Source: Candidatus Dormiibacterota bacterium (GTDB lineage: Bacteria > Chloroflexota > Dormibacteria > Aeolococcales > Aeolococcaceae). Taken from it: 64,000 nt of DNA. The stretch is taken from positions 820,335-884,334 of the forward strand of contig DASYKI010000016.1 in assembly GCA_035995545.1 (NCBI GenBank), given 5' to 3'. This document shows, piece after piece, positions 4,410 to 56,304 of this stretch (positions are counted from its first letter, which is position 1; each line of letters begins with the position of its first letter). The notes beneath the pieces are model-generated. The model had not been told where the DNA came from, made no database searches, and saw nothing but the letters and a program-made list of their open reading frames with translations. The position numbers were made by a program, and so were the translations under genes.

Positions 4410-5812
4410 CTCTCGCAACCACTCCGGCCTTGGCCCTGCAGCAGCGACTCGACGAGCTCGCCGCGCGGCACAACGTCGTCGGTGCGTCGTTCGCGGTCCG
4501 GCACGGCGACGAGACCATCGAGGTCGCCACCGGCATCGCCAGCATGCGCACCGGCGCACCGGCAACGCCCGAGACACTCTTCCAGGTCGGCTCGATCACC
4601 AAGGTGTACACGGCGACACTGGTGATGCAGCTCGTAGAACGCGGCGTCCTCGACCTCGACGCGCCGGTGGCGCGCGCGCTGCCCGAGCTGCGTCTCAGCA
4701 CTCCGGACCTGCCCGAGCAGATCACCCTGCGACATCTGCTGACGCACACCAGCGGCATCGACGGCGACCACTTCGCCGACATGGGCCGCGGCGACGACGC
4801 GGTGGAGCGCTACGTCGCATCGTGCCGGCAGCTGCCGCAGATCTTCGCGCCCGGACGGATGTGCTCGTACTCCAACGCGGGGTACGTGATCCTCGGCCGC
4901 GTCCTCGAGGTGACACTGGGGACGACGTGGGACCGCGCGCTCGCGGAGAACGTGCTCAGGCCGCTGCAGTGCGCCGCGACGGTGACCCTGCCGGAGGACG
5001 CGATCCTGCACCCCGTCGCCATCGGGCACCTGCCCGGCGAGGGTGGCGACGTCACCGCGCCGCGTCCCACCCCGGTGTGGTCGCTGCCGCGCTCGGTGGG
5101 GCCGGCTGGACACGTCGTCGCCACGGCAGCGGACGTGCTGCGCTTCGCGCACATGCACCTCGACGGCGGCCGCGCCGCCGACGGCGCCCAGGTGCTCGAC
5201 GCGCAGACGGTGGCCGGCATGCGGCAGCCGCAGGTGGAGCTGATCGACCCCATGCTCGGCGACCACTGGGCGCTGGGCTGGTTCGGCTCGCACTGGGAGG
5301 GCGGCCGCACCGTCGGGCACGACGGCGCCACCATCGGCCAGGGCGCCTTCCTGCGCCTGCTGCCCGACCACCACCTCGCCGCCGTGCTGCTCACCAACGG
5401 CGGCTCGGTGCGCGCACTCTACGAGGACCTGTTCAGCGAGGTGCTCGCCGACCGCGCCGGCGTCGCCCTGCGGCGCACACCGGCGATCCCGCCGCCGGGA
5501 GGCGACACGCACCTCGACGTCGACCTCGATGCCCTCGAAGGCACGTACGAACGCTACGGGTTCCGCTACGAGATCGCCGCGCAGGACGACGGCACGCTGC
5601 AGCTGACGCCGTCGATCACCGTCGACGAGCCGCTGCTGGCCCTGGCCGCGCTGCCCACCCTGCGCATGGTGCCGTACCAGGGACTCACCGTCGTCTGCCA
5701 TCCGCCGGCGCTGCCGCAGGCGCGCGCGACGGGAACCTTCGCCGGCGTCGAGAACGGGCGCGCGCAGTGGCTGCACATCGGTGGCCGGGTGGCGCGCAGA
5801 GTGTCGCGTTGA
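4406..5812 (+). CDS. Serine hydrolase of the beta-lactamase/transpeptidase-like fold (class C / D-aminopeptidase / esterase type), cytoplasmic
   Basis: ATG 4406 overlaps the S8 stop (ATGA). Motifs are SxxK (SITK) and Y-S-N (SYSNAGY). There is no signal peptide, and there is an extra C-terminal domain of about 100 aa. Only the second part of track ORF 3317..5812 is real. Confidence 0.88.
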   Translation: MTLATTPALALQQRLDELAARHNVVGASFAVRHGDETIEVATGIASMRTGAPATPETLFQVGSITKVYTATLVMQLVERGVLDLDAPVARALPELRLSTPDLPEQITLRHLLTHTSGIDGDHFADMGRGDDAVERYVASCRQLPQIFAPGRMCSYSNAGYVILGRVLEVTLGTTWDRALAENVLRPLQCAATVTLPEDAILHPVAIGHLPGEGGDVTAPRPTPVWSLPRSVGPAGHVVATAADVLRFAHMHLDGGRAADGAQVLDAQTVAGMRQPQVELIDPMLGDHWALGWFGSHWEGGRTVGHDGATIGQGAFLRLLPDHHLAAVLLTNGGSVRALYEDLFSEVLADRAGVALRRTPAIPPPGGDTHLDVDLDALEGTYERYGFRYEIAAQDDGTLQLTPSITVDEPLLALAALPTLRMVPYQGLTVVCHPPALPQARATGTFAGVENGRAQWLHIGGRVARRVSR

Positions 5813-8021
5813 TCGAGGAACCGCAGGCCGGCATCGAGGCGGTGCGGGCGGCGGGACGCGCGGCCATGGGCGTCACCGGCCAGGACGTGCGCGAGTCGCT
5901 GCGCAGCGCGCTGCGCGCATCGCACGCGGGGTGGTACCCGCTGCTGGCGCTGGGCCTCCTGGCCATCATCGACACCTTCCAGCTCTACGCCTACGTCACC
6001 CTCGGGCCCGACATCAGCGCCTCGCTGGGAATCAGCAAGACCGCGGTGACCATGATCCTGGTGCTCGACCAGCTGGCCATCGTGCTGGCCAGCCTGGCCG
6101 CCGCGGGGCTCGTCCAGCGCGTGCCGCGGCGCGGCCTGGTGGCCAGCACCACGGGCATGGCCTGGAGCCTGATGACGTTGCTCACCGGACTGGTGACGTC
6201 GATCTGGCAGCTCGGCCTGGTGATGGTCGCCGACGGCGCCAGCAGCGGGTCGGTGCACGCGGTGCACAAGCCGCTGCTGCTGGACACCTATCCGGCCGCG
6301 ACGCGCGTGCGTGTGCTCAGTGCGTACCAGGTCGCCGCGGTGACGGGGACCATCCTCTCGCCGGCGCTGGTCGCGCTCCTCACCGGAGTCGTGCATCTGG
6401 GCTGGCGTGGCGTCTTCGTGGTCATGGGCCTGATCTGCGTGGCCAGCAGCCTGATCGCGGTGCGGCTGCGCGATCCCGGTTTCGGCGGCCAGGACACCGG
6501 CCGGCTGCGCGACGCCGTGCGCGCCGACGCGACCCGCCGCGACGGTGGCGGCAGCGCAGCGCCGGTTCCGCAGAGTGGCGATCCCGCAACCAGCCTGCGC
6601 GTGATGGAGATCGTGCAGCGCCTGATGATCATCCCCACCATGCGGCGCACCCTCGCCGTCGCCGCCGCGCTCGGCGTGGGACTGGTGCCGCTCAACAGCT
6701 ACTTCTCCTTCTTCCTCGAACAGCGCTGGGGCCTGGGGCCGACGCAGCGCGCGCTGTTCTTCGCCCTGGTGCCTGTGTTCACCGCGATCGCGCTGGTGGT
6801 CGGCTCGCGACACGGCGAGTCGCTGTACCGCCGTGACCCTGCCCGGCTGATGCGCCTCGGCGCGCTGCTCATCGGTGGCGCCGCGGTCAGCCTGATCGCG
6901 GTGGTGGCGGCGCCGGTGTTCTGGATGATGGCGCTCGCCTTCGCGCTGACCAGCGCGATGCTGGCCGGCGTGGTGCCCGCGCTGTACACCGGTGCGCTGT
7001 CGGTGGTGGCGCCGCGCATGCGGCCGCACGCGTCGGCGCTGCTCGGCGTCTTCCTGGTTGCCGTCGGCGGCATCCTGGGCCTGCTGGTGCTGGGCAGCGC
7101 CGATTCGCGCTACGGGCCGGCGGGGTCGGTGGTGGCGGTGTGCTTCCCGTGCATCGTGGCCGCGCTGCTGATGCGCTCGGCGGCGGGCAGCGTCAACACC
7201 GATCTCGACAACCTCATCGACGAGATCGTCGAGGCGGAGCAGCTGACCCGCCTCGACGCTCGCGGCGTGCAGCTCCCGCTGCTGAGCTGCCGGCGGGTGA
7301 GCTTCTCCTACGGCGCGCTGCAGGTGCTCTTCGACGTCGACTTCAGCGTCGAGGACGGCGAGATGGTGGCCCTGCTCGGCACCAACGGCGCGGGCAAGTC
7401 GACGTTGCTGCGCGTCATCGCCGGCACCGGCCTGCCCTTCAGCGGCAGCGTGCGCTATCGCGGCGCGGACATCACCTATCTCGACGCCGAGCGCCGCGTG
7501 CGGCTCGGCATCGCCCAGGTCCCGGGCGGGCGCGCCGTGTTCGGGCGCATGTCCGTCGTCGACAACATGCGCGTCTTCGGCTTCACCCACGGACGCGACC
7601 GCCGCGCCGTCGACCGCGGTATCGAGCGCAGCCTGGCCGCGTTCCCCCGTCTCGGCGAGCGGCGCAACCAGGCGGCGGGAACGCTGAGCGGCGGCGAGCA
7701 GCAGATGCTGGCTCTGTCCAAGGCGCTCATCCTCGAGCCGAGACTGCTGTGCATCGACGAGCTCTCGCTGGGACTGGCGCCCAAGGTGGTCGGCGAGCTG
7801 CTCACCATGGTGCGCGCCATCAACGCGACGGGCACCGCGGTGGTGCTGGTCGAGCAGTCGGTCAACGTCGCGCTGTCGCTGGTCGAGCGTGCCTATTTCA
7901 TGGAGAAGGGGGAGGTGCGCTTCCAGGGCCGCGCGTCGGAGCTGCTCGACCGCGACGACCTGCTGCGCTCGGTGTTCCTCGAAGGCGCGGCGCGCGGTCT
8001 CGCCGGCGCCGGGACCGGGCG

Positions 8022-8025
<4 letters not shown>
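5809..8025 (+). CDS. Fusion protein: MFS-like polytopic membrane domain plus LivF-like ABC ATPase
   Basis: This is the real part of track ORF 4354..8025. Start candidates are TTG 5809 (TTGA overlap with the upstream stop at 5810-5812), GTG 5842 and ATG 5866. About 12 hydrophobic helices are followed by Walker A GTNGAGKST, signature LSGGEQQM and Walker B LLCIDELS. Confidence 0.85.
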
Positions 8026-10847
<2,822 letters not shown>

Positions 10848-10858
10848 GGAGGACGACC

Positions 10859-13366
10859 GTGACCAACCACCGAGCCACCGTCGCGCCTCTCCGCGCGCTG
10901 CTCTGCGCCGCACTCGCCGTCGCCGCGTCGGCCGGTGCCGCACTCAGCTTCGTCCGCGCCGCCGGCGCCGAGGTGGCCGGCACCCCGATGAACCTCCACG
11001 TTGACGCGCAGGAGTACGCGGCGACGGCTCCCGCCGACCCGTACCAGCACGACGCGGCGGCCATCCACGTCAGCGTCGCCGGCGGCCAGGACACCACGCG
11101 CAGCTACGTCCACGTCGACCTGGCCGGGCTGGTCGGCGGCGCCATGCCGACCTCGGTCCTGCTCAGCCTGACTCCCAACGGCGACGCCGCCGCCAACGCC
11201 AACGGCAGCGCGGCGACGCTGCAGGCGTGTCCGCTGCTGGGATCGCTGGAGCCGTTCAACCCGACCTCGCCGCCCGGTTTCGACTGCACCAGCGCGGCGC
11301 ACGGCACGCCGGCCGCCGCGGGCACGTGGACCTTCGAGCTGGCCCCGCTGATGCAGCGCTGGCTGCTCGAAACCAACCGCGGCGTCGCCATCGTCGCCGA
11401 CCACAGCGCCGCGACCGCGACCTGGTTCACCGCCTTCGATAGGAGCAAGACACGGGCGATCGCGGTCGTGCCGGTGAGCGACTCGCCACCGCTGTCGACG
11501 TACACCTTCCCCGCGGTGCCGGCAGCGCCGCCACCCGCACCGCCGCCCGCGGCCGTGGCGCCGCCGTTCCTGTCAGTACCGGCCACAACTCCGGGGCCAC
11601 CGAGCGCGGCAACACCGGGGCCGTCGCCGTCGCCGAGCAGCGCCGCGAGTGCAGCCGGCGGAGCCGGCACCGGCACCCCACCCGCGCCGGGTGCCGCCAC
11701 CATGCACGTGGAACCCGCCAGCACCTGGCTGTGGTGGCTGCTCGGCTCCGTCCTGCTCGGCGCCGCAGCCGCGCTGGCCATGGTGGTGCAGCGCGCGGTG
11801 CGAGATGCCCACCGTCTTCCCGACGCCGCCGCGCTGCGCGCCGCCCTGCGCCATCCCGACCTGCGCCTCTCTCGCGCCGGCGCGCTGGTCATGATCGGCG
11901 CCGTCGTCGCCGTCGGCTTCTCCAACCGCCTCGCCGTCCAGGGCAGTCCCGCCGCAGCGGGCAGCTCCGGACCGCAGGCGGCTGCGGGCGCAACCCCCAG
12001 CAGCGGCGCAGCCGGCGGCGGCAACACCGGCGCCACGGCGCCACCACCCGGCGCAGCGAGCGGGCCCGCCGCCGCACAGAGCGCAGCCGCCGCCGCCCAG
12101 AGCGCCGCCGCCGCCGCAGCAGCAGCGGGAGCGCAGGCACCCACCGGCGACATCCCCGGCGTGACCGCCACCACCATCCGCATCGGCTTCATGACCGAGA
12201 CCAACCGCTCGGCGGGCAACGGCGCCATCGGAGCCAAGAACATCGGCGACTACGGCAACGTGCCCGCCCAGGCGCAGGCGATGGCCGACTGGCTCAACCG
12301 CAACGGGGGCATCGCCGGACGCCGGGTGATCCCGGTGATGGAGAACTTCGACGCCTCCAACACCGACCCCAACCAGGAGGCGGCGCTCTGCACCAAGTTC
12401 ACCCAGGACGACCACGTCTTCTCCGTCGTCGACATCGAGTCCAACCTCGACTACGGAGCGTGCTACGCGCACGCGCACACACTCGTGGTCGAGGCGCAGA
12501 CCTACCAGGGCGACACGCAATTGATGGACCACCTCGCCCCGTACGTGTTCGACTCGACCACGCCACCCAACGAGCGCGCCTTCCAGGTGCACGCCGACGG
12601 CCTTGCCCAGCAGGGATTCTTCGGCAAGACCGACAAGGTGGGCATCATCGTCGCCGACGATCCGCTGATCCGCCGCGACTTCACCGAGGTGGCCATGCCG
12701 CGCCTCGCCCGCGCCGGGGTGACCAATCCCGACCTCTACTACGTCAACCCCTACTCCGACACCGGCACCAAGGCGCGCGACCTGGGCACCGCGGTGACCC
12801 GCATGCACAGCAACGGCGACACCGAGGTCATGCTCTTCGGCGACTCCGGGGGCGGCGCCACCCTGATCACCATGGCCGCGGCCAAGGGCCAGGGCTGGTA
12901 CCCCAAGTGGGGTCTCGACACCAGCAGCGCACCCGGCGCGCTGGAGACCATCAGCCAGATCTCCGACGAGATGAAGACCGCGGTGGTGGTCGGCTACAAC
13001 CGCACCTACGACGCGGAGAGCGACAGGGGCGGCGAGCCGGTGCCGGCCTCGCCGCTGGAAAAGCTCTGCGTCGACACCTACAGGGCGGCGGGGATCAGCT
13101 TCGCCACCCGGCTCAACTCGGTGGTCGCCTACCGCTACTGCGACTACGCCTTCCTGCTGCACCAGGCCTCGCAGGGGCTCGGCGCCAACCTGAGCATCCA
13201 GACCCTGATGGCGCAGGCGTGGCACCTGGGCAGCTCGTACATGTCGGTCAACGCCTACCACGCCACCTTCAACGGCCGGCCCTACGGCACCGACGGCTAC
13301 CGCATGCTCGGCTACGACACCGGGTGCTCATGCTTCAAGTACAGCAGCCCGACCTACACGTTCTGA
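10859..13366 (+). CDS. Composite envelope protein: signal peptide + unknown beta-rich domain + Pro-rich linker + 2 TM helices + Ala/Gly linker + Liv-type (type I PBP) substrate-binding domain
   Basis: GTG 10859 is preceded by GAGGAGG (6-nt spacer) and lies 11 nt after the upstream stop. The signal peptide is LLCAALAVAASAGAALS. The TM helices are WLWWLLGSVLLGAAAALAMVV and ALVMIGAVVAVGF. The SBP-like part starts GVTATTIRIGF. Only the last 835 codons of track ORF 7889..13366 are real. Confidence 0.8.
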   Translation: MTNHRATVAPLRALLCAALAVAASAGAALSFVRAAGAEVAGTPMNLHVDAQEYAATAPADPYQHDAAAIHVSVAGGQDTTRSYVHVDLAGLVGGAMPTSVLLSLTPNGDAAANANGSAATLQACPLLGSLEPFNPTSPPGFDCTSAAHGTPAAAGTWTFELAPLMQRWLLETNRGVAIVADHSAATATWFTAFDRSKTRAIAVVPVSDSPPLSTYTFPAVPAAPPPAPPPAAVAPPFLSVPATTPGPPSAATPGPSPSPSSAASAAGGAGTGTPPAPGAATMHVEPASTWLWWLLGSVLLGAAAALAMVVQRAVRDAHRLPDAAALRAALRHPDLRLSRAGALVMIGAVVAVGFSNRLAVQGSPAAAGSSGPQAAAGATPSSGAAGGGNTGATAPPPGAASGPAAAQSAAAAAQSAAAAAAAAGAQAPTGDIPGVTATTIRIGFMTETNRSAGNGAIGAKNIGDYGNVPAQAQAMADWLNRNGGIAGRRVIPVMENFDASNTDPNQEAALCTKFTQDDHVFSVVDIESNLDYGACYAHAHTLVVEAQTYQGDTQLMDHLAPYVFDSTTPPNERAFQVHADGLAQQGFFGKTDKVGIIVADDPLIRRDFTEVAMPRLARAGVTNPDLYYVNPYSDTGTKARDLGTAVTRMHSNGDTEVMLFGDSGGGATLITMAAAKGQGWYPKWGLDTSSAPGALETISQISDEMKTAVVVGYNRTYDAESDRGGEPVPASPLEKLCVDTYRAAGISFATRLNSVVAYRYCDYAFLLHQASQGLGANLSIQTLMAQAWHLGSSYMSVNAYHATFNGRPYGTDGYRMLGYDTGCSCFKYSSPTYTF

Positions 13367-15023: not shown

Positions 15024-15338
15024 ATGAGCGACACCACCGACACCGCGTCCGCCTGCACCCACCTCGACGCCGTCGCCACCGACCTCACCCCCAGCGGCCA
15101 GGGCTGCAAGCAGTGCCTGGAGTCCGGAGGGCGCTGGCTGCACCTGCGCCTCTGCCTGGAGTGCGGGGAGGTGGGCTGCTGCGACGACTCGCCCAACCGC
15201 CACGCCACCGCGCACTTCCACGCCAGCGGCCATCCCCTGATCCGCTCCTACGAGCCCGGCGAGGACTGGTGGTGGTGCTTCGTCGACGAGATGGTCTTCG
15301 AGGTCGACGACGACCCCTTCAGCGGCCTCCACCACTGA
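15024..15338 (+). CDS. UBP-type zinc-finger domain protein
   Basis: The Cys/His pattern CKQCLESGGRWLHLRLCLECGEVGCCDDSPNRHATAHFHASGH is typical of small actinobacterial Znf-UBP proteins. Confidence 0.85.
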   Translation: MSDTTDTASACTHLDAVATDLTPSGQGCKQCLESGGRWLHLRLCLECGEVGCCDDSPNRHATAHFHASGHPLIRSYEPGEDWWWCFVDEMVFEVDDDPFSGLHH

Positions 15339-15779: not shown

Positions 15780-17414
15780 TCAGCCGTCGAAGCGGACGGT
15801 GGCGTTGGTGGTGCTGAGATGGGCGGCGCCGGTGCTGCTCACGTGCGTGCCGGCGATGCTCATGTTGCTGACGATCACGGTGACGCCGCGGACTGTGGAG
15901 TCCGACGGGCTGGGACTGTACGCGGTGTAGTCGGACACCGTGATCGGCGTCGCCTGCCCCGCGGTGACCTCGATCTCGATGAGCTTCTGCTTGGCGTCGC
16001 CGCCGACGGTCTCGGAGAAGTCGTTGCTGTAGGTGACGCTGCCGAGGTTGCCGCCGTCGCCCATGTACACCGCCAGGGCGCGGTCGGCGTGCACCACGTT
16101 GTTGTTGGCGAAGACCACGTTGGAGATGCTGTGCGTGCTCTCGGTGCCGATCTTGAGCGCCGACTTGTGCGTCCAGCAGACCGCGCCCTGGACGCGGATC
16201 CTGTCGGTGGGGCCGGCGCCCGACGATGTTGCCTTGACCGCGAAGCAGTCGTCGAAGGTGTACACGAAGGGGTTGGTGATGGTGACGTCGCTCGACGAGT
16301 CGGGGTCGATGCCGTCGAGTCCCGGTCCCAGGTTGAGGTTGTTGACCACGTGCACGTTGGACACGGTGACGTGCGATGCGCCCTGGATGTGCACCGTCCA
16401 CGACGCCGAGTCGCGGAGCAGCACGTCGTTGAGGGTCACGTTCTGCCCGCCCTCGATGCGCAGCAGCTTGGTCTTGCTGCCGGCGGGCCGCAGCACTGTG
16501 CCGTCGGTGTCGATGATGCCGTGGCCGGCGATGCCCACGTTGCTGGCGCCGCTGGTGCGCAGCAGCGATCCCGAGGTGTAGTCGGACGGCCTCGACGACC
16601 CCTGGATGCGCGCGCCGCTCTGCAGGTACAGGGTCATGTTGCTGCGCAGCTGCAGTGAACCGGTGAGGTAGACGCCGTTCGGCACGTAGAGCACACCGTG
16701 CCGTGTCGAGGCGGTGTCGATGGCGCTCTGGATGCGCGACGTCTGCATCGTCGTGCCGGTGTTGTCGGTGATGTAGCTGGCCAGGTTGATCACGCCGCTG
16801 CCGCCGATGCCCGGCGCGCTGGTCTCGGGTGCGTCGGCCATGATCAGCAGGCGGTGCAGGCCGTTGACGGTGACGATGAGGTTGCGCGGCATGCCGATGG
16901 CGAAGCTCAGCGTGGTGCCGCTGGCCGCGCCGTTGATGTTGTAGCTGCGCGGGCTGATGCTGAAGCTGCCCACCGGCTCCGCGGTGCCGACCACCGCGTT
17001 GACGCTCCCGGTGATGGCAAAGCGCGCGTAGGCCGCGTCGCCGAACTTGTCGACGGGGATCTTCTGCCCGTTGACGGTGAGTGTGTAGGCGGTGTCGTCG
17101 ACGGCGCCCGGCGTGCGGTCGTAGGCGACCACCGTGCCGGGTCCGGTGCTGATGCTGCCGCTGGCGGTGGCCGCGGCGCTGGACGTGCTGCTCGGCAGCG
17201 TCGCCAGGGGCGTCGGCGTGACGCCGGGCAGCCCGCCGGTGCCGGGGCCGGTCGAGCCGCCGCCCATGGCCCGCACCACCACCGTGGCGACCACGATCAC
17301 GACGAGCACCACGGCGACCATCGTCACCCGGGCTCGCGTTCCCGAGGCCCACCATCGCGTCACACCGTTCACCTCCATGGCCGTGGCAATCCGGCGCCTG
17401 CCCGCCGCAACCAT
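15780..17414 (-). CDS. Membrane-anchored glycoside hydrolase family 28-like (pectin-lyase-fold beta-helix) protein
   Basis: GH28-like blocks GIDPDSSSDV, FDDCFAVKA and CWTHKSALKIGTES. There is an N-terminal TM helix (MVAVVLVVIVVATVVV) and a Ser/Thr/Pro linker. The start could be 17414, 17378 or 17321. Confidence 0.8.
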   Translation of the reverse strand: MVAAGRRRIATAMEVNGVTRWWASGTRARVTMVAVVLVVIVVATVVVRAMGGGSTGPGTGGLPGVTPTPLATLPSSTSSAAATASGSISTGPGTVVAYDRTPGAVDDTAYTLTVNGQKIPVDKFGDAAYARFAITGSVNAVVGTAEPVGSFSISPRSYNINGAASGTTLSFAIGMPRNLIVTVNGLHRLLIMADAPETSAPGIGGSGVINLASYITDNTGTTMQTSRIQSAIDTASTRHGVLYVPNGVYLTGSLQLRSNMTLYLQSGARIQGSSRPSDYTSGSLLRTSGASNVGIAGHGIIDTDGTVLRPAGSKTKLLRIEGGQNVTLNDVLLRDSASWTVHIQGASHVTVSNVHVVNNLNLGPGLDGIDPDSSSDVTITNPFVYTFDDCFAVKATSSGAGPTDRIRVQGAVCWTHKSALKIGTESTHSISNVVFANNNVVHADRALAVYMGDGGNLGSVTYSNDFSETVGGDAKQKLIEIEVTAGQATPITVSDYTAYSPSPSDSTVRGVTVIVSNMSIAGTHVSSTGAAHLSTTNATVRFDG

Positions 17415-17463: not shown

Positions 17464-18594
17464 TCAGCCCAGCAGGTCCTCGATCAGGCCGGCCACCAGC
17501 GCGGCGCGGTCGGGCATGGTCGCGGCGATGACGTGCTCGTCCTCGGCGTGGGCGCCGCCGCCGACGGCGCCGAGTCCATCGAGGGTCGGGGTGCCCTGGG
17601 CGGCGGTGAGGTTGCCGTCGGAGCCACCGCCCACCTCGACGCCGTCGAGCGCGTCCAGCCCCAGCCGTTCGGCGACCGACGTCGCGCGCTGGAAGAGGTC
17701 CTGGGCCATGCGCGACGGCAGCGGCGGCCGGTCGGGCCCGCCGCGCAGGCTGAGGCGCGCGCCGGGCAGCGTCGCGGCGAGGTCGTGCATCTCGTCGTCG
17801 ACGCGGCGCTGCTCCTCGGGGCTCAGCGCGCGCACGTCGACGTGCAGGTGCGCGGACGCGGGCACCACGTTGGTCGCCGTCCCGCTCGACGCCACCGTGG
17901 GCGTGACCGTTGTGCCCAGCTCCGGACGGGCGATGCGCGCCAGCCCCAGCACGGCGTGGGCCAGCTCGACGGTGGCGTTGACGCCCTTCTCCGGCTCCAG
18001 CCCCGCGTGCGACGCCCTGCCCTCGACGTCGAGCTGGTACGTCGACACGCCCTTGCGCGCGATCTTGAGGGCGGCGCCCTGGCTGGGTTCGAGGACGAGC
18101 ACGGCCTGCACCCGGCGGGCGGCGTCCTTGATGACGCCGCGCGACGTCGCCGAGCCGACCTCCTCGTCGGAGGTGAACAGGATCTCGACGCCCTCTCGGT
18201 GCCTGCCGGCGAGGGCCGCGACGGCGAAGAAGCCCTGCACGATGCCCGCCTTCATGTCGAAGACGCCGGGACCGGTGAGGCGGCCGTCCACCTCGGCGAA
18301 GGGGATGCGCTGCAGCGTGCCCAGCGGCCACACGGTGTCGAAGTGGCCGAGCAGCAGGACGCGTGGCTGCGCGCCGAGCCGCCAGTGCAGGTGGGGGAGA
18401 CCGCCGCTCTCGATCCACTCCGGGGCGGCGCCCATGACCTCCTCGCCGACGCGCGCGACGACGTCTGCGCAGGCGCGCAGGGCCGCCGCGTCGGACGAGG
18501 GCGATTCCATCTCGACCAGCGCGCGCACCGCGTCGCGCATCTGCGCCTGGCGGTCGCGGAGATCAGTTGTGGGCACGGTTGTCTCAATCTCCAT
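17464..18594 (-). CDS. M20-family metallopeptidase (carboxypeptidase G2 / N-acyl-L-amino-acid amidohydrolase type)
   Basis: M20 blocks LLLGHFDTVWP, GPGVFDMKAG and TSDEEVGS, a central dimerisation-domain-like segment, and a C-terminal GGSDGN..GGGAHAEDEH. Confidence 0.88.
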   Translation of the reverse strand: MEIETTVPTTDLRDRQAQMRDAVRALVEMESPSSDAAALRACADVVARVGEEVMGAAPEWIESGGLPHLHWRLGAQPRVLLLGHFDTVWPLGTLQRIPFAEVDGRLTGPGVFDMKAGIVQGFFAVAALAGRHREGVEILFTSDEEVGSATSRGVIKDAARRVQAVLVLEPSQGAALKIARKGVSTYQLDVEGRASHAGLEPEKGVNATVELAHAVLGLARIARPELGTTVTPTVASSGTATNVVPASAHLHVDVRALSPEEQRRVDDEMHDLAATLPGARLSLRGGPDRPPLPSRMAQDLFQRATSVAERLGLDALDGVEVGGGSDGNLTAAQGTPTLDGLGAVGGGAHAEDEHVIAATMPDRAALVAGLIEDLLG

Positions 18595-18606: not shown

Positions 18607-19596
18607 CTAGGCTTCGCGCAGCGCGTCGACGGCGAGGCGGGCGATGCTGCCGACGGCGCGGTCGGCATCGGGGTCGTGCAGCGCGGGAGCGGCGGCCGTG
18701 GTGAACACCGCCACCGCGTACCTTCCGCCGCCGGGATACTCGACGACGCCGGCCTCGTTGCGCACGAAGGGCAGCGTGCCCGTCTTGCCGCTCGTCCTCA
18801 CGCTGCCGGGAAACCCGGCGCGCAGGCGGTGCGGCCAGACCTGCTGCCCCATGATGCGGCGCACGAACGCGCAGGCATCCGGAGGCGCGGCCTGGTCCTT
18901 CCAGATCAGCTCCAGCAGGCGGGTGATCTCGCGTGGGGTCGAGCGGCTCGTCGCCGGCGGCTGCAGGTCGCGACAGCGCTGCCAGCGCACCGGTGCGATG
19001 GCGCTGAGCACGTCGTCGTCGCCCTGCTCCAGGCGGGCGCGCTCGGCGGGGGTGAGGTCGAGGTCGGCGACGAGGCGGCCGAGCAGGAAGGCGCAGTCGC
19101 CTTCGAGCACGGTGCGGTGCAGCCCCAGGCCCCGCATCGTGGCGTTGACGCTGTCGCGTCCGGCTCGCGCCATGACGACGTCGGTGGCGGCGTTGTCGCT
19201 GACGGCGATCATCAGCTGGGCGAGGTCGCGCAGCGACATCTCGACCGCGTCCTGCAGCGCCGACAGCCCCGTGCCGCCGCCGGTCCTGCCCTCGGCGGCG
19301 ACGCGGATGCGCTCGGTGGGCTGCAGTGTCCCGCTCTCGAACTGCCGGGTCAGCTCGACGGCGACGGGCACCTTGAAGACCGAGGCCAGCACCACCGGCT
19401 CGTCGGCGTCGACACCCGCCTCGGTGCCGCCGTCGAGGTCGCGCGCGTGGACCCAGGCGCGCAGCCCGAGGGGTTCGCACACGGCGGCGACGGCGTCCGA
19501 CAGGCCGGACACGGCGGTGCTCACCCGCGGAGTGTGGCACGTCGTGCCTTGGCGCCGAGTCCCAAATGCGCATGCCGAGTTGGGCTTCTCTGCCAA
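18607..19596 (-). CDS. Class-A-beta-lactamase-related serine hydrolase
   Basis: SxxK (SVFK), SDN (AVSDNAATD) and KTG (SGKTGTL) occur in class A order. No obvious signal peptide is visible. The start is uncertain (19596 or a downstream GTG near 19524). Confidence 0.8.
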   Translation of the reverse strand: MAEKPNSACAFGTRRQGTTCHTPRVSTAVSGLSDAVAAVCEPLGLRAWVHARDLDGGTEAGVDADEPVVLASVFKVPVAVELTRQFESGTLQPTERIRVAAEGRTGGGTGLSALQDAVEMSLRDLAQLMIAVSDNAATDVVMARAGRDSVNATMRGLGLHRTVLEGDCAFLLGRLVADLDLTPAERARLEQGDDDVLSAIAPVRWQRCRDLQPPATSRSTPREITRLLELIWKDQAAPPDACAFVRRIMGQQVWPHRLRAGFPGSVRTSGKTGTLPFVRNEAGVVEYPGGGRYAVAVFTTAAAPALHDPDADRAVGSIARLAVDALREA

Positions 19597-29174: not shown

Positions 29175-30518
29175 TCACAGCACGCCCACCGCTTCCCGCG
29201 CCGGCAGACGCGCCGCGCGCAGCGCCGGCCACGCCGCCGCCAGCAGCGCCAGCAGCGCCGACCCGCCGACGCCGATGAGCGCCGTCAGCAGCGGGATGCC
29301 ACCCAGGTCGATCCCGGCCAGTCCCTGCTGCACCAGGTAGCCGTTGACCACGGCACCGGTCGCCGCCACCGCGCCCAGGCCCGCCGCCGTGCCCAGCACA
29401 CCGCCCGCAACGCCGCTGAACAGCGCCTCGGCGAGGAACCAGCGCAGCACGTCGCGGTCGCGCGCGCCGATGGCCTTGAGCACCCCGATCTCGCGCCGCC
29501 GCTCGCGCACCGCGGCGAGCAGCGCGTTGGCGATGCCCAGCGCGGCGATGGTCAGCGCGATCAGCCCGATCGACCCCAGCACGATGTCGACGACGTGCAG
29601 GTAGCGCTGCACGGTGGCCACCAGGTGCTCGGGCGCGCTGGTCGAATATCCCAGCGTGGTGATCTCGGCGCGCACGGTGTGGATGTCGTCGAGGGAGCTG
29701 GCCACGACGATCACGCCGGAGTACTTGGTGCTCGGCAGCGGCAGCCCCACCGCGGTGCCGTCCACCCCGGAGGTCTGCCAGCTCCGCGCTGCCCCGACGA
29801 ACTGGCTGGACGCGAGGAACGTCCCCTCGCCCACCTGCTGGGCGACCACCCCGGTGATGGCCACCCGCGTCCAGCGGGCGCGGACGCGGATGTCGCCGGT
29901 GGCCTGCACCTGCGGCGTGCCCAGCTCGACCTCGCTGCCGAGCACCGCCTCGGGGCGCTTGACGTCGAGGTGCAGCCGGTCGAGGTAGTCGAGCCCGACC
30001 GCGACCTCGGTGACCGACCCGGCCGCGGGGATGCGGCCGGCCAGCAGGGTGACGGGCAGGCTGCCGACGGCGTTCAGATCCACCCCGACGGCCACCGCGT
30101 TGAAGGGCTGGACCAGCCCGCGGTCGGGATCGGTGCCGTCGAAGGCGGGAATCGACCGCCCCAGCGGCGGCGGCACCACGATCACCTGCTGGGCCAGCAC
30201 CGGCGTCGCCGACTGCACCGACGGCGCGCCGCGGATCGCCCGCAGCGCGGCGTCGTCCAGGGCACGGGGCGCTCCGGCGCGCGGTGTGTCGCTGTCCGGG
30301 GCGATCGGGTCGGGCGCGGCGGCGGCCACCTTGATCGCGGTGGCCGGGCCGCCCTTGCCCAGTTCGCCGATCACCCGGGTGTCGGCCACCTGGGCGATGG
30401 CCGCCAGGGCCACCAGCAGGCCGCTGCCCAGGGCCACGGCGAGCACGGTCAGCGCCGTGCGCGCCGGACGGCGAAGCACGCTGCGCAGCGCCAGCAGCAG
30501 GCCATCGCGCCAGCTCAT
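29175..30518 (-). CDS. ABC transporter permease, MacB/FtsX type
   Basis: ATG 30518 overlaps the stop of the upstream ATPase (ATGA). There is an N-terminal TM helix, an extracytoplasmic domain of about 260 aa, and a C-terminal FtsX bundle (RRREIGVLKAIGARD). Confidence 0.88.
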   Translation of the reverse strand: MSWRDGLLLALRSVLRRPARTALTVLAVALGSGLLVALAAIAQVADTRVIGELGKGGPATAIKVAAAAPDPIAPDSDTPRAGAPRALDDAALRAIRGAPSVQSATPVLAQQVIVVPPPLGRSIPAFDGTDPDRGLVQPFNAVAVGVDLNAVGSLPVTLLAGRIPAAGSVTEVAVGLDYLDRLHLDVKRPEAVLGSEVELGTPQVQATGDIRVRARWTRVAITGVVAQQVGEGTFLASSQFVGAARSWQTSGVDGTAVGLPLPSTKYSGVIVVASSLDDIHTVRAEITTLGYSTSAPEHLVATVQRYLHVVDIVLGSIGLIALTIAALGIANALLAAVRERRREIGVLKAIGARDRDVLRWFLAEALFSGVAGGVLGTAAGLGAVAATGAVVNGYLVQQGLAGIDLGGIPLLTALIGVGGSALLALLAAAWPALRAARLPAREAVGVL

Positions 30519-31252
30519 CCGTGCACCACCCCGTCGCGGAGGTGGAGCTGCACCCCCGCCCAGGCCGCCACCCGCGGGTTGTGGGTGACCACCACCAGGG
30601 TGCAGCCGCGCTCGGTGACCACCTCGTGGAGGAGGTCGAGGACCCGGTCCGTGGACTCCTCGTCGAGGTTGCCGGTGGGCTCGTCGGCGAGCAGCAGGCG
30701 GGGCTGGTTGGCCAGGGCCCGGGCGATGGCGACGCGCTGCTGCTCGCCGCCGCTGAGCTGGCCGGGCCGGTGGCCGGCGCGGTCGCCCAGGCCGACGGCG
30801 CCGAGCATCTCGTCGGCGCGACGCCGCCGCTGCCCGGGCGGGACTCCGGCCAGGCTCATCGCCAGCATCACGTTCTCGCGCGCGGTGAGCACCTCGACCA
30901 GCCCGAAGTGCTGGAAGACGAAGCCGACCACCTCGCGCCGGTAGGCGGCCAGCCGTGCGCCGCGCAGGCCCGGCAGGTCGACGCCGCCGACCCGCAGCTC
31001 GCCTCCGGTGGGAGGCTCCAGGCCGCCGAGCAGGCTGAGCAGGGTGCTCTTGCCCGCCCCCGACGGCCCCTGCAGCGCGACGTGGCTGCCCGGCTCGAGG
31101 TCGAGGTCGACGCCGCGGAGCACGGGGACGGCGCGCGCGCCGCGGCCGTAGGTGTGGGTCAGCCCCCGCGCCCGCACGGCCACTCCGGCGCCGGCCACGG
31201 CGCTGCCACCGCGGTGCGGCACGGACACGGGACGGCGGAGCACCTCGGACAT
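30515..31252 (-). CDS. ABC transporter ATP-binding protein (MacB/LolD type)
   Basis: The start is ATG 31252. Motifs are Walker A GPSGAGKST, signature LSGGEQQR and Walker B LLLADEPTGNLD. It encodes 245 aa. Confidence 0.92.
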   Translation of the reverse strand: MSEVLRRPVSVPHRGGSAVAGAGVAVRARGLTHTYGRGARAVPVLRGVDLDLEPGSHVALQGPSGAGKSTLLSLLGGLEPPTGGELRVGGVDLPGLRGARLAAYRREVVGFVFQHFGLVEVLTARENVMLAMSLAGVPPGQRRRRADEMLGAVGLGDRAGHRPGQLSGGEQQRVAIARALANQPRLLLADEPTGNLDEESTDRVLDLLHEVVTERGCTLVVVTHNPRVAAWAGVQLHLRDGVVHG

Positions 31253-31336
31253 CGGCGCCCATGGTGCACGGGAACCGATGAGTCGGCGCCCCCGCGCTCG
31301 TCTCACCACTACGCCATCCGTCACAGGAGACATGAC

Positions 31337-31714
31337 ATGGGCCAGCCGGTCGTTCACTTCGAGATCATGGGCAAGGACGGAGCCGCGCTCCGCGAGTACT
31401 ACGCATCGCTGTTCGGGTGGGCGTTCGACACCGCCAACCCGATGGACTACGGCACCGTCGACCCCAAGCAGAACCCCACCAACGACGGCCGGGTGGGCAG
31501 CATCGGCGGTGGGGTGGGGACCGCTCCGGAGGGATACGACGGCCACCTCACCTTCTACATCGCCGTGGACGACGTCGAGGCGGCGCTGGCCAGGGCCGAA
31601 AGCCTGGGCGGCAAGCGCCTGATGGGCCCGTTCACGGTCACCGAGGGCATCGAGATCGGCCAGTTCGCCGACCCCGAGGGGCACATGGTGGGTCTCGTTC
31701 GGGGAAGCATGTAG
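31337..31714 (+). CDS. VOC/glyoxalase family protein (125 aa)
   Basis: ATG 31337 has CAGGAGA upstream. The sequence reads MGQPVVHFEIMGKDGAALREYYASLFGW...FADPEGHMVGLV. Confidence 0.85.
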   Translation: MGQPVVHFEIMGKDGAALREYYASLFGWAFDTANPMDYGTVDPKQNPTNDGRVGSIGGGVGTAPEGYDGHLTFYIAVDDVEAALARAESLGGKRLMGPFTVTEGIEIGQFADPEGHMVGLVRGSM

Positions 31715-31734
31715 GCTTGGCGACCACGACGGCC

Positions 31735-47354: not shown

Positions 47355-47662
47355 CGGCGCCTGCCGCGCACGTTGTGAACCGCCATGTCGTCCTCAACCA
47401 ACGCCTGTCCCCGCTCGCCGATTATGCGCGCTTTCCGGCGTGTGCAAGCCTGCAAACACATGGGGGATGCAACGAAGCTGCAACGCTCGACGCGTTGACC
47501 GGCGGTTGATTCACAAAGGCTTCACCGGCTGCCGTCCGCGAAATGCGGGCGCGTCGCTGGACGTTTCGTCTAGCTTGCGGCCCGACGGTACGGGGCGGCG
47601 CCGCGCTTGCGGCGGAGCGGCCGGCGGCCCCATCATGTCGCCCCGGAACGGGTTGGATCGGG

Positions 47663-53521: not shown

Positions 53522-53523
53522 CC

Positions 53524-56195: not shown

Positions 56196-56304
56196 CCGCG
56201 CCACGTCGGCGCCTCAGCCCGCCGCTGACCCGCCCCTGCGGCGCGGCGCGCGTCTGCGGCATCCTTCTCGGGGCTGCCGGACGCAGACGGTGTGGAGGAC
56301 GCTG

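What the first reader, a model, noticed from the sequence alone, without database searches (positions are those of the whole stretch)
10859..13366. Rosetta-stone fusion: unknown secreted domain + 2 TM + Liv-type binding domain in one 835-aa protein
Seen in sequence: the order is signal peptide, then a beta-rich domain of about 200 aa with 2 Cys (LQACPLL, FDCTSA), then a Pro-rich linker. Next come TM1 (WLWWLLGSVLLGAAAALAMVV), a short Arg-rich loop, TM2 (ALVMIGAVVAVGF) and an Ala/Gly/Ser linker (AAQSAAAAAQSAAAAAAAAG). A PBP-type-I-like domain starting GVTATTIRIGF, with 6 Cys, comes last. The topology puts both globular parts outside the cell. In the second system the two halves are separate proteins. 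These are SBP 49377..51203 with an N-terminal TM and the unknown-domain protein 55146..56195 with a C-terminal TM. The fusion therefore equals those two proteins joined tail to head. Inference: the unknown domain works physically together with the binding protein, for example in substrate capture or presentation at the wall.
Basis: partly seen in the sequence, partly recalled or inferred. Interest (0 to 1): 0.7.

Follow-up and report, generated by a model that had tools for sequence, protein, structure and literature searches.

The report
Extra wall-facing domain on Liv-type importers
One real gene joins a CBM96/DNRLRE-like beta-sandwich to a Liv-type nutrient-binding protein through a two-helix membrane hairpin, and the same beta-sandwich is attached in many other actinobacteria to other parts of Liv-type ABC importers, so it looks like an undescribed extra component of these transporters.

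Summary
ORF 10859..13366 (835 aa) starts at a GTG five bases after a GGAGGA site. It is the last gene of an operon that runs S8 peptidase, beta-lactamase-fold hydrolase, MFS-LivF, LivH-LivM-LivG.

The C-terminal domain is a divergent Peripla_BP_6 (Liv-type) binding protein. The "unknown" domain is a divergent DNRLRE/CBM96-fold beta-sandwich (AF2 pLDDT 91.7; best PDB match 8wab).

An exhaustive profile search found 345 relatives. Of the 150 best cluster representatives, 30 are fused to a Liv-type binding protein, 14 to Liv permeases (one to a whole transporter), and 84 stand alone with a C-terminal anchor. Stand-alone genes lie next to orthologous Liv genes. Locus L013 is a clean split version of system 1.

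The window's own second "unknown" protein (55146..56195) shares the architecture and operon position. Its sequence link is only marginal.

The Rosetta-stone inference (a functional link to the transporter) holds. The molecular role (wall or substrate capture versus docking) remains inferred.

The parts
10859..13366 (+). Whole fusion gene (835 aa plus stop): accessory beta-sandwich, TM hairpin, Liv-type binding domain
10859..10969 (+). Sec-type signal peptide (aa 1 to about 37; AXA sites VRA and AGA)
   Evidence: Read from the sequence. The N-terminal hydrophobic stretch is conserved in homologues. The cleavage site was not predicted with a dedicated tool.
10970..11485 (+). DNRLRE/CBM96-fold beta-sandwich ectodomain. 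C124 and C143 are conserved in 89% of relatives.
   Evidence: NCBIfam DNRLRE_dom E 3.1e-4 for this domain; 35 of 45 relatives match. AF2 pLDDT 91.7. Foldseek 8wab E 3.9e-5, TM 0.62-0.65. Conservation.
11486..11722 (+). Pro/Ala/Ser-rich linker (stalk), about 79 aa
11723..11788 (+). TM1 (TWLWWLLGSVLLGAAAALAMVV). It corresponds to the C-terminal anchor of the stand-alone forms.
11789..11875 (+). Conserved Arg-rich cytoplasmic loop (7 R, 3 D)
11876..11938 (+). TM2 (AGALVMIGAVVAVGFSNRLAV). It corresponds to the N-terminal anchor of a tethered binding protein.
11939..12145 (+). Ala/Gly/Ser-rich flexible tether, about 69 aa
12146..13363 (+). Divergent Liv-type (Peripla_BP_6, cluster B) substrate-binding domain with 6 Cys
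8022..10847 (+). LivH-LivM-LivG fusion (2x BPD_transp_2, ABC_tran, BCA_ABC_TP_C). Its ATGA start overlaps the stop of the upstream gene.
5809..8025 (+). MFS_1-like membrane domain fused to a LivF-type ABC ATPase (start TTG 5809 or GTG 5767)
   Evidence: the same gene occurs in L001, L002, L009 and L013
4406..5812 (+). Beta-lactamase-fold (PF00144) serine hydrolase, operon member
   Evidence: conserved in L001 and L002
2832..4409 (+). Peptidase_S8 subtilase (start codon not refined)
   Evidence: conserved in L001
13405..14991 (+). PucR-family regulator immediately downstream (start codon not refined)
   Evidence: also downstream in L002
49377..51203 (+). System 2: TM-anchored, very divergent Liv-type binding protein (608 aa)
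   Evidence: hhalign probability 92.6%, E 4.7e-7 against the C-domain family. No Pfam or NCBIfam hit.
51200..53521 (+). System 2: LivH-LivM fusion
53518..55149 (+). System 2: tandem ABC ATPases (LivG/LivF-type fusion)
55146..56195 (+). System 2: signal peptide, 2-Cys beta-rich ectodomain, Pro-rich linker, C-terminal TM. Probable very divergent stand-alone counterpart of the N-domain.

Best explanation
**What it is.** The gene encodes a two-headed, membrane-anchored subunit of a Liv-type (HAAT family) ABC importer.

**Topology.** After signal-peptide cleavage, a DNRLRE/CBM96-fold beta-sandwich sits outside the cell on a Pro-rich stalk of about 79 residues. TM1 runs inward. A conserved Arg-rich loop lies in the cytoplasm. 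TM2 runs back out. A flexible tether of about 69 residues carries a divergent Liv-type substrate-binding domain.

**Origin.** The protein equals a stand-alone 'beta-sandwich, stalk, C-terminal TM' protein joined to an anchored binding protein. Both exist as separate genes in related loci.

**Shown.**
- The beta-sandwich family is specifically tied to Liv-type importers.
- In different lineages it is fused to the binding protein, to the permease, or to a whole transporter polypeptide.
- When free, it is encoded beside orthologous Liv genes.

**Inferred (about 0.85 that it is a bona fide physical component of the transporter).** TM1 and its juxtamembrane R-x3-RD-x3-P motif anchor the domain to the LivHM membrane domains.

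**Inferred further (about 0.4).** The stalked head works at a distance from the membrane, within the cell wall. There it would bind a wall or extracellular ligand. That would hold the tethered binding domain where substrate is released, and the binding domain would then shuttle substrate to LivHM. The fusion would fix 1:1 stoichiometry and proximity.

**Likely cargo of system 1 (inferred from neighbours only).** Amino acids or short peptides, possibly containing D-amino acids, produced by the co-encoded secreted S8 and beta-lactamase-fold hydrolases.
For: **Fusion is real and conserved.**

**C-domain is Liv-type.**
- Distant homologues P0014, P0015, P0017 and P0018 carry PF13458.
- The family profile hits PDB 4n03, a Liv-like binding protein, at 4.7e-8.
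- The domain alone hits Peripla_BP_6 at 1.3e-6.
- Fused relatives P0024, P0045 and P0049 score above the Pfam cut-off.

**N-domain fold.**
- 35 of 45 relatives hit DNRLRE_dom, best 2.5e-13.
- 6 of 45 relatives hit Pfam CBM96.
- AF2 pLDDT is 91.7 and pTM 0.86.
- Foldseek's top match is 8wab, a DNRLRE/chondroitin-sulfate-binding CBM, at E 3.9e-5. TGF-beta-family prodomains and CBM96 7vbo follow.

**Link to Liv transporters.**
- The exhaustive profile search gave 345 hits.
- Census of the best 150: 30 with a binding protein, 14 with BPD_transp_2 permeases, 84 stand-alone. The permease group includes P0037 (LivH+LivM) and P0062 (permeases plus 2 ATPases).
- Stand-alone genes lie 1-3 kb from LivHMG and MFS-LivF orthologues in L009, L013, L017, L018, L020 and L024.
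- L013 holds a stand-alone N-domain protein plus a lipoprotein binding protein of the same family.

**Topology.** The loop has 7 Arg and 3 Asp. A Cys pair is conserved in the ectodomain.

**Stalk length kept in other architectures.** In the permease fusion P0074 the domain ends at about residue 192 and the first TM lies near residue 255.

**Cargo hint.**
- In the window: S8, PF00144, M20 and Beta-lactamase2 genes.
- In L013: amidohydrolase, two PF00144 genes and a Peptidase_M55 D-aminopeptidase. In 11 metagenome loci (L009, L010, L012, L013, L015-L018, L020, L024, L025) an ORF of about 370-420 aa lies head-to-head with the stand-alone gene; the three tested with Pfam (L013, L017, L018) are MR_MLE.
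Against: - No interaction, ligand or transport has been measured.
- The window's own N-domain and C-domain both score below the curated cut-offs of their families (20.9 against 34 bits; 28.7 against 31.7 bits).
- The N-domain family is acidic: mean net charge -8, 92% of members negative, few Lys. This is unlike the Lys/Arg groove that binds alginate in CBM96 (PMC9971899). Polyanionic glycan binding is therefore unlikely, and carbohydrate binding of any kind is unproven.
- Some binding-protein homologues (P0013, P0015, P0017) occur with no visible transporter or N-domain gene on their contigs. Those contigs are short.
- The stand-alone genes are separated from the Liv genes by a divergently transcribed gene, so they are neighbours and not proven operon members.
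- The context sample of stand-alone genes covers one subfamily only.
Confidence: 0.6

Rival explanations
1. Docking or capping module. The beta-sandwich binds the binding domain itself, or the mouth of LivHM. It would act like the MalF P2 loop that receives MalE, or like a TGF-beta prodomain that caps its partner. In this way it would guide or gate delivery of the loaded binding protein. It would not bind wall material or substrate.
For: - The domain is fused either to the binding protein or to the permease, as expected for a part of their interface.
- Structural neighbours include BMP9 and TGF-beta prodomains, which are protein-binding arms. Two of 45 relatives hit TGFb_propeptide.
- The acidic surface argues against CBM96-style polyanion binding.
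- The comparison with MalF P2 rests on established knowledge of the maltose transporter and was not tested here.
Against: - A Pro-rich stalk of about 60-80 residues separates the domain from its TM helix in all architectures, including the permease fusions. This does not fit a domain that must sit directly on the permease.
- The TM-scores to prodomains are modest (0.4-0.5).
Confidence: 0.25
2. Assembly or stability factor, or wall-spanning spacer. The domain and stalk have no ligand. They act as a scaffold or chaperone that helps the large fused Liv polypeptides insert, or that keeps wall polymers away from the transporter entrance.
For: - The transporters concerned are unusually fused (LivH-LivM-LivG, MFS-LivF).
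- TM1 and the juxtamembrane motif are strongly conserved.
- The residues conserved across the family are mostly structural: Gly, Pro, Trp, Leu and the Cys pair.
Against: - A well-folded 170-aa domain conserved across 345 detectable relatives and three architectures is more than a spacer needs.
- Conserved polar positions (E/D78, R81, D87, D142) suggest a functional surface.
Confidence: 0.1
3. Artefact or accident. The long ORF is a gene-calling or assembly artefact in 72% GC DNA. Alternatively it is a lineage-specific read-through fusion of two unrelated neighbouring genes, with no functional meaning.
For: - High-GC DNA gives very long spurious ORFs. The same frame is open from 7889.
- There is no BLASTP similarity between the two systems' proteins.
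Against: - The same fusion, with a conserved hairpin, occurs in independent assemblies at 64-79% identity and in 30 clusters below 50% identity.
- GC3 is continuous in the frame and a Shine-Dalgarno site precedes the start.
- Independent fusions of the same domain to Liv permeases exist.
Confidence: 0.02

Closest known systems
Liv/HAAT-family ABC importers (LivJ/K-HMGF; TC 3.A.1.4) with cluster-B, Peripla_BP_6 binding proteins
   Same: - BPD_transp_2 permeases are present.
- There is a LivG-type ATPase with the BCA_ABC_TP_C tail, plus a second ATPase.
- The binding domain is homologous to PF13458 members and to PDB 4n03.
   Different: - The binding domain is tethered by a TM hairpin and carries an additional N-terminal ectodomain.
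- LivH, LivM and LivG are one polypeptide, and the LivF-type ATPase carries an MFS-like membrane domain.
- The binding domain scores just below Pfam's cut-off and has six Cys.
DNRLRE domain (NCBIfam NF033679) / CBM96 (Pfam PF24517; PDB 7vbo alginate-binding, 8wab chondroitin-sulfate-binding)
   Same: - The beta-sandwich fold matches: Foldseek 8wab E 3.9e-5, TM 0.62-0.65.
- Most relatives hit DNRLRE_dom.
- The location is extracytoplasmic.
   Different: - Described members sit in polysaccharide lyases, S-layer or surface proteins, and bind anionic glycans through Lys/Arg grooves (PMC9971899, PMC2447325).
- This family is acidic, has its own conserved Cys pair, is membrane-anchored on a Pro-rich stalk, and is tied to ABC importers rather than carbohydrate-active enzymes.
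- The window's copy scores below the curated cut-off.
ABC importers with covalently tethered binding domains (OpuA, GlnPQ type) and lipoprotein or TM-anchored binding proteins of Gram-positive bacteria
   Same: The binding domain is kept at the membrane next to its translocator. Fusion fixes stoichiometry and local concentration. This comparison rests on established knowledge of these systems.
   Different: - Here the binding domain is not fused to the permease. It is fused to a second ectodomain through a 2-TM hairpin.
- In sister lineages that second ectodomain, not the binding domain, is the part fused to the permease.
MalF P2 periplasmic loop of the maltose importer; TGF-beta-family prodomains
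   Same: - MalF P2 is an extracytoplasmic beta-rich module attached to a transporter component that could contact the binding protein. This is an analogy from established knowledge.
- The prodomains are the next-best structural neighbours.
   Different: - No sequence relationship to MalF P2.
- A long stalk separates the domain from the membrane.
- Similarity to the prodomains is modest (TM 0.4-0.5) and says nothing about function.

Membership tests
Peripla_BP_6 / Liv-type (cluster B) substrate-binding protein: C-terminal domain | Match to the Pfam PF13458 model at or above the gathering score | tested here: not met
   The domain alone scores 28.7 bits (E 1.3e-6) against a cut-off of 31.7. The full-length protein gave no hit. 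Fused relatives P0024, P0045 and P0049 score 111, 72 and 49 bits, above the cut-off.
Peripla_BP_6 / Liv-type (cluster B) substrate-binding protein: C-terminal domain | Detectable homology to binding proteins of this class with solved structures | tested here: met
   The profile of alignment A3 hits 4n03_A, an 'ABC-type branched-chain amino acid transport systems periplasmic component-like protein', at E 4.7e-8. It also hits 4q6w, a Leu/Ile/Val-binding protein, at 0.0047.
Peripla_BP_6 / Liv-type (cluster B) substrate-binding protein: C-terminal domain | Two alpha/beta lobes joined by a hinge, with the ligand bound in the cleft | not tested
No model of the C-domain was made.
Peripla_BP_6 / Liv-type (cluster B) substrate-binding protein: C-terminal domain | Encoded with LivH/LivM-type permeases and LivG/LivF-type ATPases | tested here: met
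   The gene lies immediately downstream of a gene with 2x BPD_transp_2, ABC_tran and BCA_ABC_TP_C, and of a second ABC ATPase gene. The same order occurs in L001 and L002.
DNRLRE domain (NF033679) / CBM96 (PF24517): N-terminal domain | Match to the family model at or above the curated cut-off | tested here: not met
   The window's domain scores 20.9 bits (E 3.1e-4) against a cut-off of 34. Of 45 relatives, 35 match at E <= 0.1, best 2.5e-13. Pfam CBM96 is hit by 6 of 45, best 3.9e-5, but not by the window's copy.
DNRLRE domain (NF033679) / CBM96 (PF24517): N-terminal domain | Beta-sandwich fold superposable on solved DNRLRE/CBM96 domains | tested here: met
   The AF2 model has pLDDT 91.7. Foldseek ranks 8wab_A and 8wab_B first (E 3.9e-5 and 8.8e-5, TM 0.62-0.66). 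7vbo (CBM96) is seventh, at E 0.015 and TM 0.41.
DNRLRE domain (NF033679) / CBM96 (PF24517): N-terminal domain | Basic (Lys/Arg) groove that binds an anionic polysaccharide (PMC9971899) | tested here: inconclusive
   Only composition could be checked. The family is acidic (mean net charge -8; 92% negative; 3.5 Lys per domain). One Arg (R81 in the fusion) is conserved in 68%. No coordinates were available to map a groove.
DNRLRE domain (NF033679) / CBM96 (PF24517): N-terminal domain | Attached to a carbohydrate-active enzyme or surface-layer protein | tested here: not met
   In the 150 best relatives the partners are Liv-type binding proteins (30), Liv permeases (14) and one YceI domain. Otherwise there is only a TM anchor.
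DNRLRE domain (NF033679) / CBM96 (PF24517): N-terminal domain | Carbohydrate binding | not testable with these tools
   Needs binding assays.
Liv-associated stalked beta-sandwich family (defined here): membership of 55146..56195 | Architecture: signal peptide, ~170-200 aa beta-rich ectodomain with a Cys pair, Pro-rich linker, C-terminal TM, short basic tail | tested here: met
   The Cys spacing is 24 residues, as in family member P0121 (about 23 residues).
Liv-associated stalked beta-sandwich family (defined here): membership of 55146..56195 | Statistically significant sequence or profile similarity to the family | tested here: inconclusive
   - BLASTP: none.
- hhalign P 0.059, 0.0045 and 0.084, always in the same register with both Cys aligned.
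- phmmer to member P0121: 19.1 bits, E 6.3e-6 among 167 sequences, against a maximum of 12.9 bits in 300 shuffles.
- No direct DNRLRE or CBM96 hit.
Liv-associated stalked beta-sandwich family (defined here): membership of 55146..56195 | Encoded with a Liv-type transporter | tested here: met
   It is the last gene of the series binding protein, LivHM, ATPases. Its ATGA start overlaps the ATPase stop, and GGAGGA lies upstream. The same synteny occurs in L003.

The most novel reading that the evidence does not exclude
The stalked DNRLRE/CBM96-like beta-sandwich is a previously unrecognised, obligate extra extracytoplasmic subunit of a large group of actinobacterial Liv-type ABC importers. It has been fused repeatedly to the binding protein, the permease or the whole transporter. 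It couples uptake to the cell wall, or gates delivery by the binding protein. That would be a new architectural class of type I ABC importer.
Probability: 0.4. Interest if true: 0.7.

Novelty: new variant of a known kind. Interest (0 to 1): 0.58.

Why it matters
**Why it would matter.** Liv-type importers are textbook four- or five-component systems. No accessory ectodomain is part of that model.

**What was found.**
- One beta-sandwich family has 345 detectable relatives among 50%-identity cluster representatives.
- Pfam has no model for it beyond weak CBM96 hits.
- It is wired to these transporters in three different covalent ways.

This is the kind of evidence that has defined new transporter subunits before.

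**If the domain proves to be a functional subunit, it would:**
1. Give a handle on how binding proteins work through a thick actinobacterial wall.
2. Extend the DNRLRE/CBM96/TGF-beta-prodomain fold to a role in transport.
3. Improve annotation of hundreds of 'hypothetical' genes.

**Testability.** It is directly testable with ectodomain pull-downs, ligand screens and uptake assays.

**Limits.** The biology may still turn out modest, for example a wall spacer. The lineage in the window is uncultured.

Tried and rejected
- **Whole-protein scans.** Pfam and NCBIfam scans of the full-length proteins gave nothing, or only a weak DNRLRE hit. Low-complexity linkers suppress the scores. Domain-only scans worked.
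- **PDB sequence search with single sequences.** No useful hits.
- **BLASTP between the two systems' proteins.** No similarity.
- **Word-indexed homologue search with the N-domain alone.** It returned nothing, not even the protein itself. The search with the full protein was swamped by low-complexity words and gave only 11 close relatives.
- **First AF2 job on the shallow 9-sequence alignment.** Unusable, pLDDT 40.7. The 45-sequence alignment solved this.
- **Searches for relatives of 55146..56195.**
  - The genome-contig scan found only one orthologue, L003.
  - The first metagenome scan found none. No deep profile could therefore be built, and its homology stays marginal.
  - Domain-only Pfam and NCBIfam scans of it were empty.
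- **A 24-sequence alignment as scan query.** It was too divergent to use. A 4-sequence one worked.
- **Contexts of the orphan binding-protein homologues P0013, P0015 and P0017.** Uninformative: short contigs with no transporter genes.
- **Rough NJ tree of the N-domains.** It shows three broad groups (stand-alone, mostly permease-fused, mostly binding-protein-fused). Fragments on short contigs inflate the count of architecture changes (15), so I draw no conclusion on the number of fusion events.
- **Lipoprotein reading of the N-terminus.** Rejected. The Cys at residue 16 is not in a lipobox and is not conserved.


Full report
**1. The observation**

The window is 72% GC.

The same frame is open from 7889, but that is a high-GC artefact. 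Third-position GC switches into this frame at about 10800 and stays there to 13350, dipping only in the Pro- and Ala-rich linkers. The upstream gene stops at 10845-10847. GGAGGA follows at once, and the GTG at 10859 lies five bases later.

Feature coordinates:

| Feature | Residues |
|---|---|
| Signal peptide | about 1-37 |
| Beta domain (C124, C143) | about 38-209 |
| Pro-rich linker | 210-288 |
| TM1 | 289-310 |
| Loop (7 Arg, 3 Asp) | 311-339 |
| TM2 | 340-360 |
| Ala/Gly/Ser linker | 361-429 |
| Binding domain (6 Cys) | 430-835 |

The Arg-rich loop and the two Cys-bearing globular parts fit a topology with both heads outside.

**2. The fusion is real**

The word-indexed search returned seven full-length proteins of 821-856 aa from JGI and ENA metagenomes and one NCBI MAG. 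They are 64-79% identical over the whole length. In the alignment the TM1-loop-TM2 segment is one of the best conserved stretches, while both linkers drift freely.

Two of these proteins have the same gene order upstream:
- a PF00144 beta-lactamase-fold protein;
- an MFS_1 + ABC_tran fusion;
- a BPD_transp_2 + ABC_tran + BCA_ABC_TP_C fusion;
- the fusion gene.

The window has the same genes, with overlapping stop/start codons, preceded by a Peptidase_S8 gene and followed by a PucR-type regulator.

**3. The C-terminal domain**

The full-length protein hits nothing in Pfam. Several results show that the domain is a divergent Liv-type (cluster B) binding protein:
- The domain alone hits Peripla_BP_6 at E 1.3e-6. 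At 28.7 bits it is just under the 31.7-bit cut-off.
- A search with the domain alone found distant homologues (26-33% identity, E down to 3.6e-44). Four of them carry PF13458, and JGI names two of these (P0014, P0017) branched-chain amino-acid binding proteins.
- A profile of this family hits PDB 4n03, a Liv-like binding protein, at 4.7e-8.
- More distant fused relatives exceed the Pfam cut-off.

The window's second binding protein (49377..51203) has no Pfam or NCBIfam hit. It aligns to the same profile over 368 columns (hhalign probability 92.6%, E 4.7e-7).

**4. The 'unknown' domain**

NCBIfam gave a weak DNRLRE_dom hit. The word-indexed search with the domain alone failed. I therefore used the exhaustive HMMER search with a 9-sequence profile. 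It found 345 proteins at E <= 1e-3 and 76 at E <= 1e-10 among 50%-identity cluster representatives.

Results from a 45-sequence alignment of these relatives:
- 35 of 45 members hit DNRLRE_dom, best 2.5e-13. The window's copy scores 3.1e-4.
- 6 of 45 hit Pfam CBM96, and 2 hit TGFb_propeptide.
- AlphaFold2 gives a confident beta-sandwich (pLDDT 91.7, pTM 0.86). The shallow alignment had failed (pLDDT 40.7).
- Foldseek against the PDB ranks 8wab first (E 3.9e-5, TM 0.62-0.65). This is a chondroitin-sulfate-binding module deposited as a 'DNRLRE domain-containing protein'. BMP9 and TGF-beta prodomains and the CBM96 alginate-binding module 7vbo follow.

The DNRLRE domain was defined in archaeal and bacterial surface proteins (PMC2447325). 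Its CBM96 branch binds alginate in a Lys/Arg groove (PMC9971899).

The present family differs. It is acidic (mean net charge -8, 92% of members negative). Its best conserved positions are G76, C124, P139, D142, C143, L161, W168 and G175 in the fusion's numbering.

**5. What the domain keeps company with**

This is the main result. Census of the 150 best representatives:

| Architecture | Count |
|---|---|
| N-domain, 2 TM, Liv-type binding protein | 30 |
| N-domain fused to BPD_transp_2 permeases | 14 |
| Stand-alone, 250-399 aa, mostly with one C-terminal TM | 84 |
| Short fragments | 18 |
| N-domain + YceI | 1 |
| Other, 400-599 aa, uncharacterised | 3 |

The permease group includes P0037 (LivH + LivM) and P0062 (1571 aa: permeases plus two ATPases). 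No other kind of partner was seen.

A metagenome scan seeded with four stand-alone members returned 19 loci. Where enough upstream DNA is present, orthologues of the window's MFS-LivF and LivH-LivM-LivG genes lie 1-3 kb upstream on the same strand. This holds for L009, L013, L017, L018, L020 and L024. L016 has the L013 layout, but its contig ends too early. Between them lies an ORF of about 370-420 aa on the opposite strand; it is seen head-to-head with the stand-alone gene in 11 loci, and the three copies tested with Pfam (L013, L017, L018) are MR_MLE enolase-superfamily genes.

Locus L013 is a split version of system 1. It has a 325-aa N-domain protein with a C-terminal anchor. It also has a separate lipoprotein (LAAAC lipobox) of the same binding-protein family, which ends in the same CSCF.Y motif.

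After TM1 the fused form reads VVQRAVRDAHRLP. After their anchor the stand-alone forms read GRLFTRDATP. The N-terminal half of the fusion therefore corresponds to a whole stand-alone protein.

**6. The window's second system**

The protein at 55146..56195 has the family architecture. It is translationally coupled to the ATPase gene of a second Liv-type operon. The synteny is kept in L003, which comes from the same MAG as L001.

Sequence evidence for homology is thin:
- BLASTP gives nothing.
- hhalign gives P 0.059, 0.0045 and 0.084, always in one register with both Cys aligned.
- There is no direct DNRLRE or CBM96 hit.
- The best link is family member P0121. It scores E 5.6e-9 to the N-domain profile in the 1.8-billion-protein library and hits DNRLRE_dom at 1.7e-4. 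The system-2 domain matches it at 19.1 bits, against a mean of 5.3 and a maximum of 12.9 for the best hits of 300 shuffles.

I rate homology at about 0.7. No deeper profile could be built, because only one orthologue was found. No further copies of either domain occur in the window.

**7. How it most likely works**

Shown:
- The domain family is tied to Liv-type importers by three kinds of covalent fusion and by neighbourhood.
- The window's gene joins it to the binding protein through a hairpin with a conserved cytoplasmic loop.

Inferred with good confidence (about 0.85): the domain is a physical component of the transporter, anchored by TM1.

Inferred with less confidence (about 0.4): the head acts away from the membrane, in the wall. 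The reason is that a Pro-rich stalk of 60-80 residues is kept in all architectures, permease fusions included. There the head would bind a wall or extracellular ligand. That would keep the flexibly tethered binding domain where substrate is produced.

The main rival (about 0.25) is a docking or capping role towards the binding protein. The prodomain-like fold and the acidic surface favour it. The stalk argues against it.

The cargo of system 1 is probably amino acids or small peptides, possibly containing D-amino acids. The evidence is neighbouring genes only:
- in the window: S8, PF00144, M20 and class-A-like beta-lactamase genes;
- in L013: amidohydrolase, two PF00144 genes and an M55 D-aminopeptidase, plus the MR_MLE genes.

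System 2 sits between an acyl-CoA ligase and an enoyl-CoA hydratase. This hints at a carboxylic-acid cargo, so the accessory domain would not be tied to one substrate.

**8. Comparison and novelty**

The transporter is a Liv/HAAT system. The N-domain belongs to the DNRLRE/CBM96 fold. Both window domains fall below the curated cut-offs of their families, so I file them as divergent relatives rather than members.

I found no description of a DNRLRE-type domain as part of an ABC importer. The 13 papers that mention DNRLRE concern surface proteins, lyases and other enzymes. A search on fused or accessory domains of branched-chain ABC importers gave nothing relevant. This literature check is limited to the held library.

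I rate the finding a new variant of a known kind, with moderate to good interest. The Rosetta-stone signal is strong and broad, and it is directly testable. The molecular role is still open.

Noticed in passing
window 5809..8025; also L001 4948-7152, L002 4954-7179, L013 1-1479, L009 1-438: A 12-TM MFS_1-like domain (E 1.4e-25) is fused N-terminally to the LivF-type ABC ATPase of system 1. The fusion is conserved in all related loci. An MFS-like membrane domain on an importer's ATPase is unusual, and I have no explanation for it.
   Followed up: partly
window 8022..10847, 51200..53521, 53518..55149: The Liv components are heavily fused. System 1 has LivH-LivM-LivG in one 941-aa protein. System 2 has a LivH-LivM fusion and a LivG-LivF tandem ATPase. 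Adjacent genes overlap by 4 bp (ATGA).
   Followed up: partly
L009 3614-4729, L010 3-1121, L012 425-1675, L013 6550-7767, L015 29-1243, L016 1878-3026, L017 624-1763, L018 1751-2959, L020 947-2212, L024 978-2117, L025 1069-2283 (all minus strand): An ORF of about 370-420 aa lies head-to-head with the stand-alone N-domain gene in 11 metagenome loci. The three copies tested (L013, L017, L018) are MR_MLE (enolase-superfamily) genes. It could be a dipeptide epimerase or a related enzyme. Its specificity was not examined.
   Followed up: partly
L013 10628-17585: Downstream of the stand-alone N-domain gene lie an amidohydrolase, two beta-lactamase-fold genes (one with DUF3471), a Peptidase_M55 D-aminopeptidase and the lipoprotein binding protein. 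This is a coherent set for processing D-amino-acid peptides.
   Followed up: partly
window 49377..51203: The system-2 binding protein (608 aa, Cys-rich, with large insertions) has no Pfam, NCBIfam or PDB sequence hit. It is recognisable only by profile-profile comparison (probability 92.6%).
   Followed up: partly
window 11780..11830 (after TM1); stand-alone proteins P0113, P0070, P0101, P0138: The fused form (VVQRAVRDAHRLP) and the stand-alone forms (GRLFTRDATP) share a juxtamembrane motif, R-x3-RD-x3-P, on the cytoplasmic side of the anchor helix. It is a candidate contact with the transporter.
   Followed up: partly
protein P0072 (634 aa) from the exhaustive search: One relative carries the N-domain fused to a YceI-like domain (PF04264) instead of a Liv component. 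It is the only non-Liv partner seen.
   Followed up: no
window 15780..17414 (-), 17464..18594 (-), 18607..19596 (-), 15024..15338 (+): Downstream of the PucR regulator lie a GH28-like beta-helix protein, an M20 peptidase, a class-A-like Beta-lactamase2 protein and a small zf-UBP protein. Whether they belong with system 1 is unknown.
   Followed up: no
window 47543..49204 and 56143..57078: System 2 is flanked by an AMP-binding acyl-CoA ligase and an enoyl-CoA hydratase. This suggests a carboxylic-acid cargo, different from system 1.
   Followed up: no
L004, L005, L006 (proteins P0017, P0013, P0015): Binding-protein homologues with the same conserved motifs (GIAGRRV, C..FT.D..VF, GCSCF.Y) occur as apparent orphans next to TetR, MarR or PadR regulators and hydrolases. 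No transporter genes are visible on these short contigs.
   Followed up: partly
window 30518..32086 (-): There is another ORF with ABC-ATPase similarity, unrelated to the two Liv systems.
   Followed up: no
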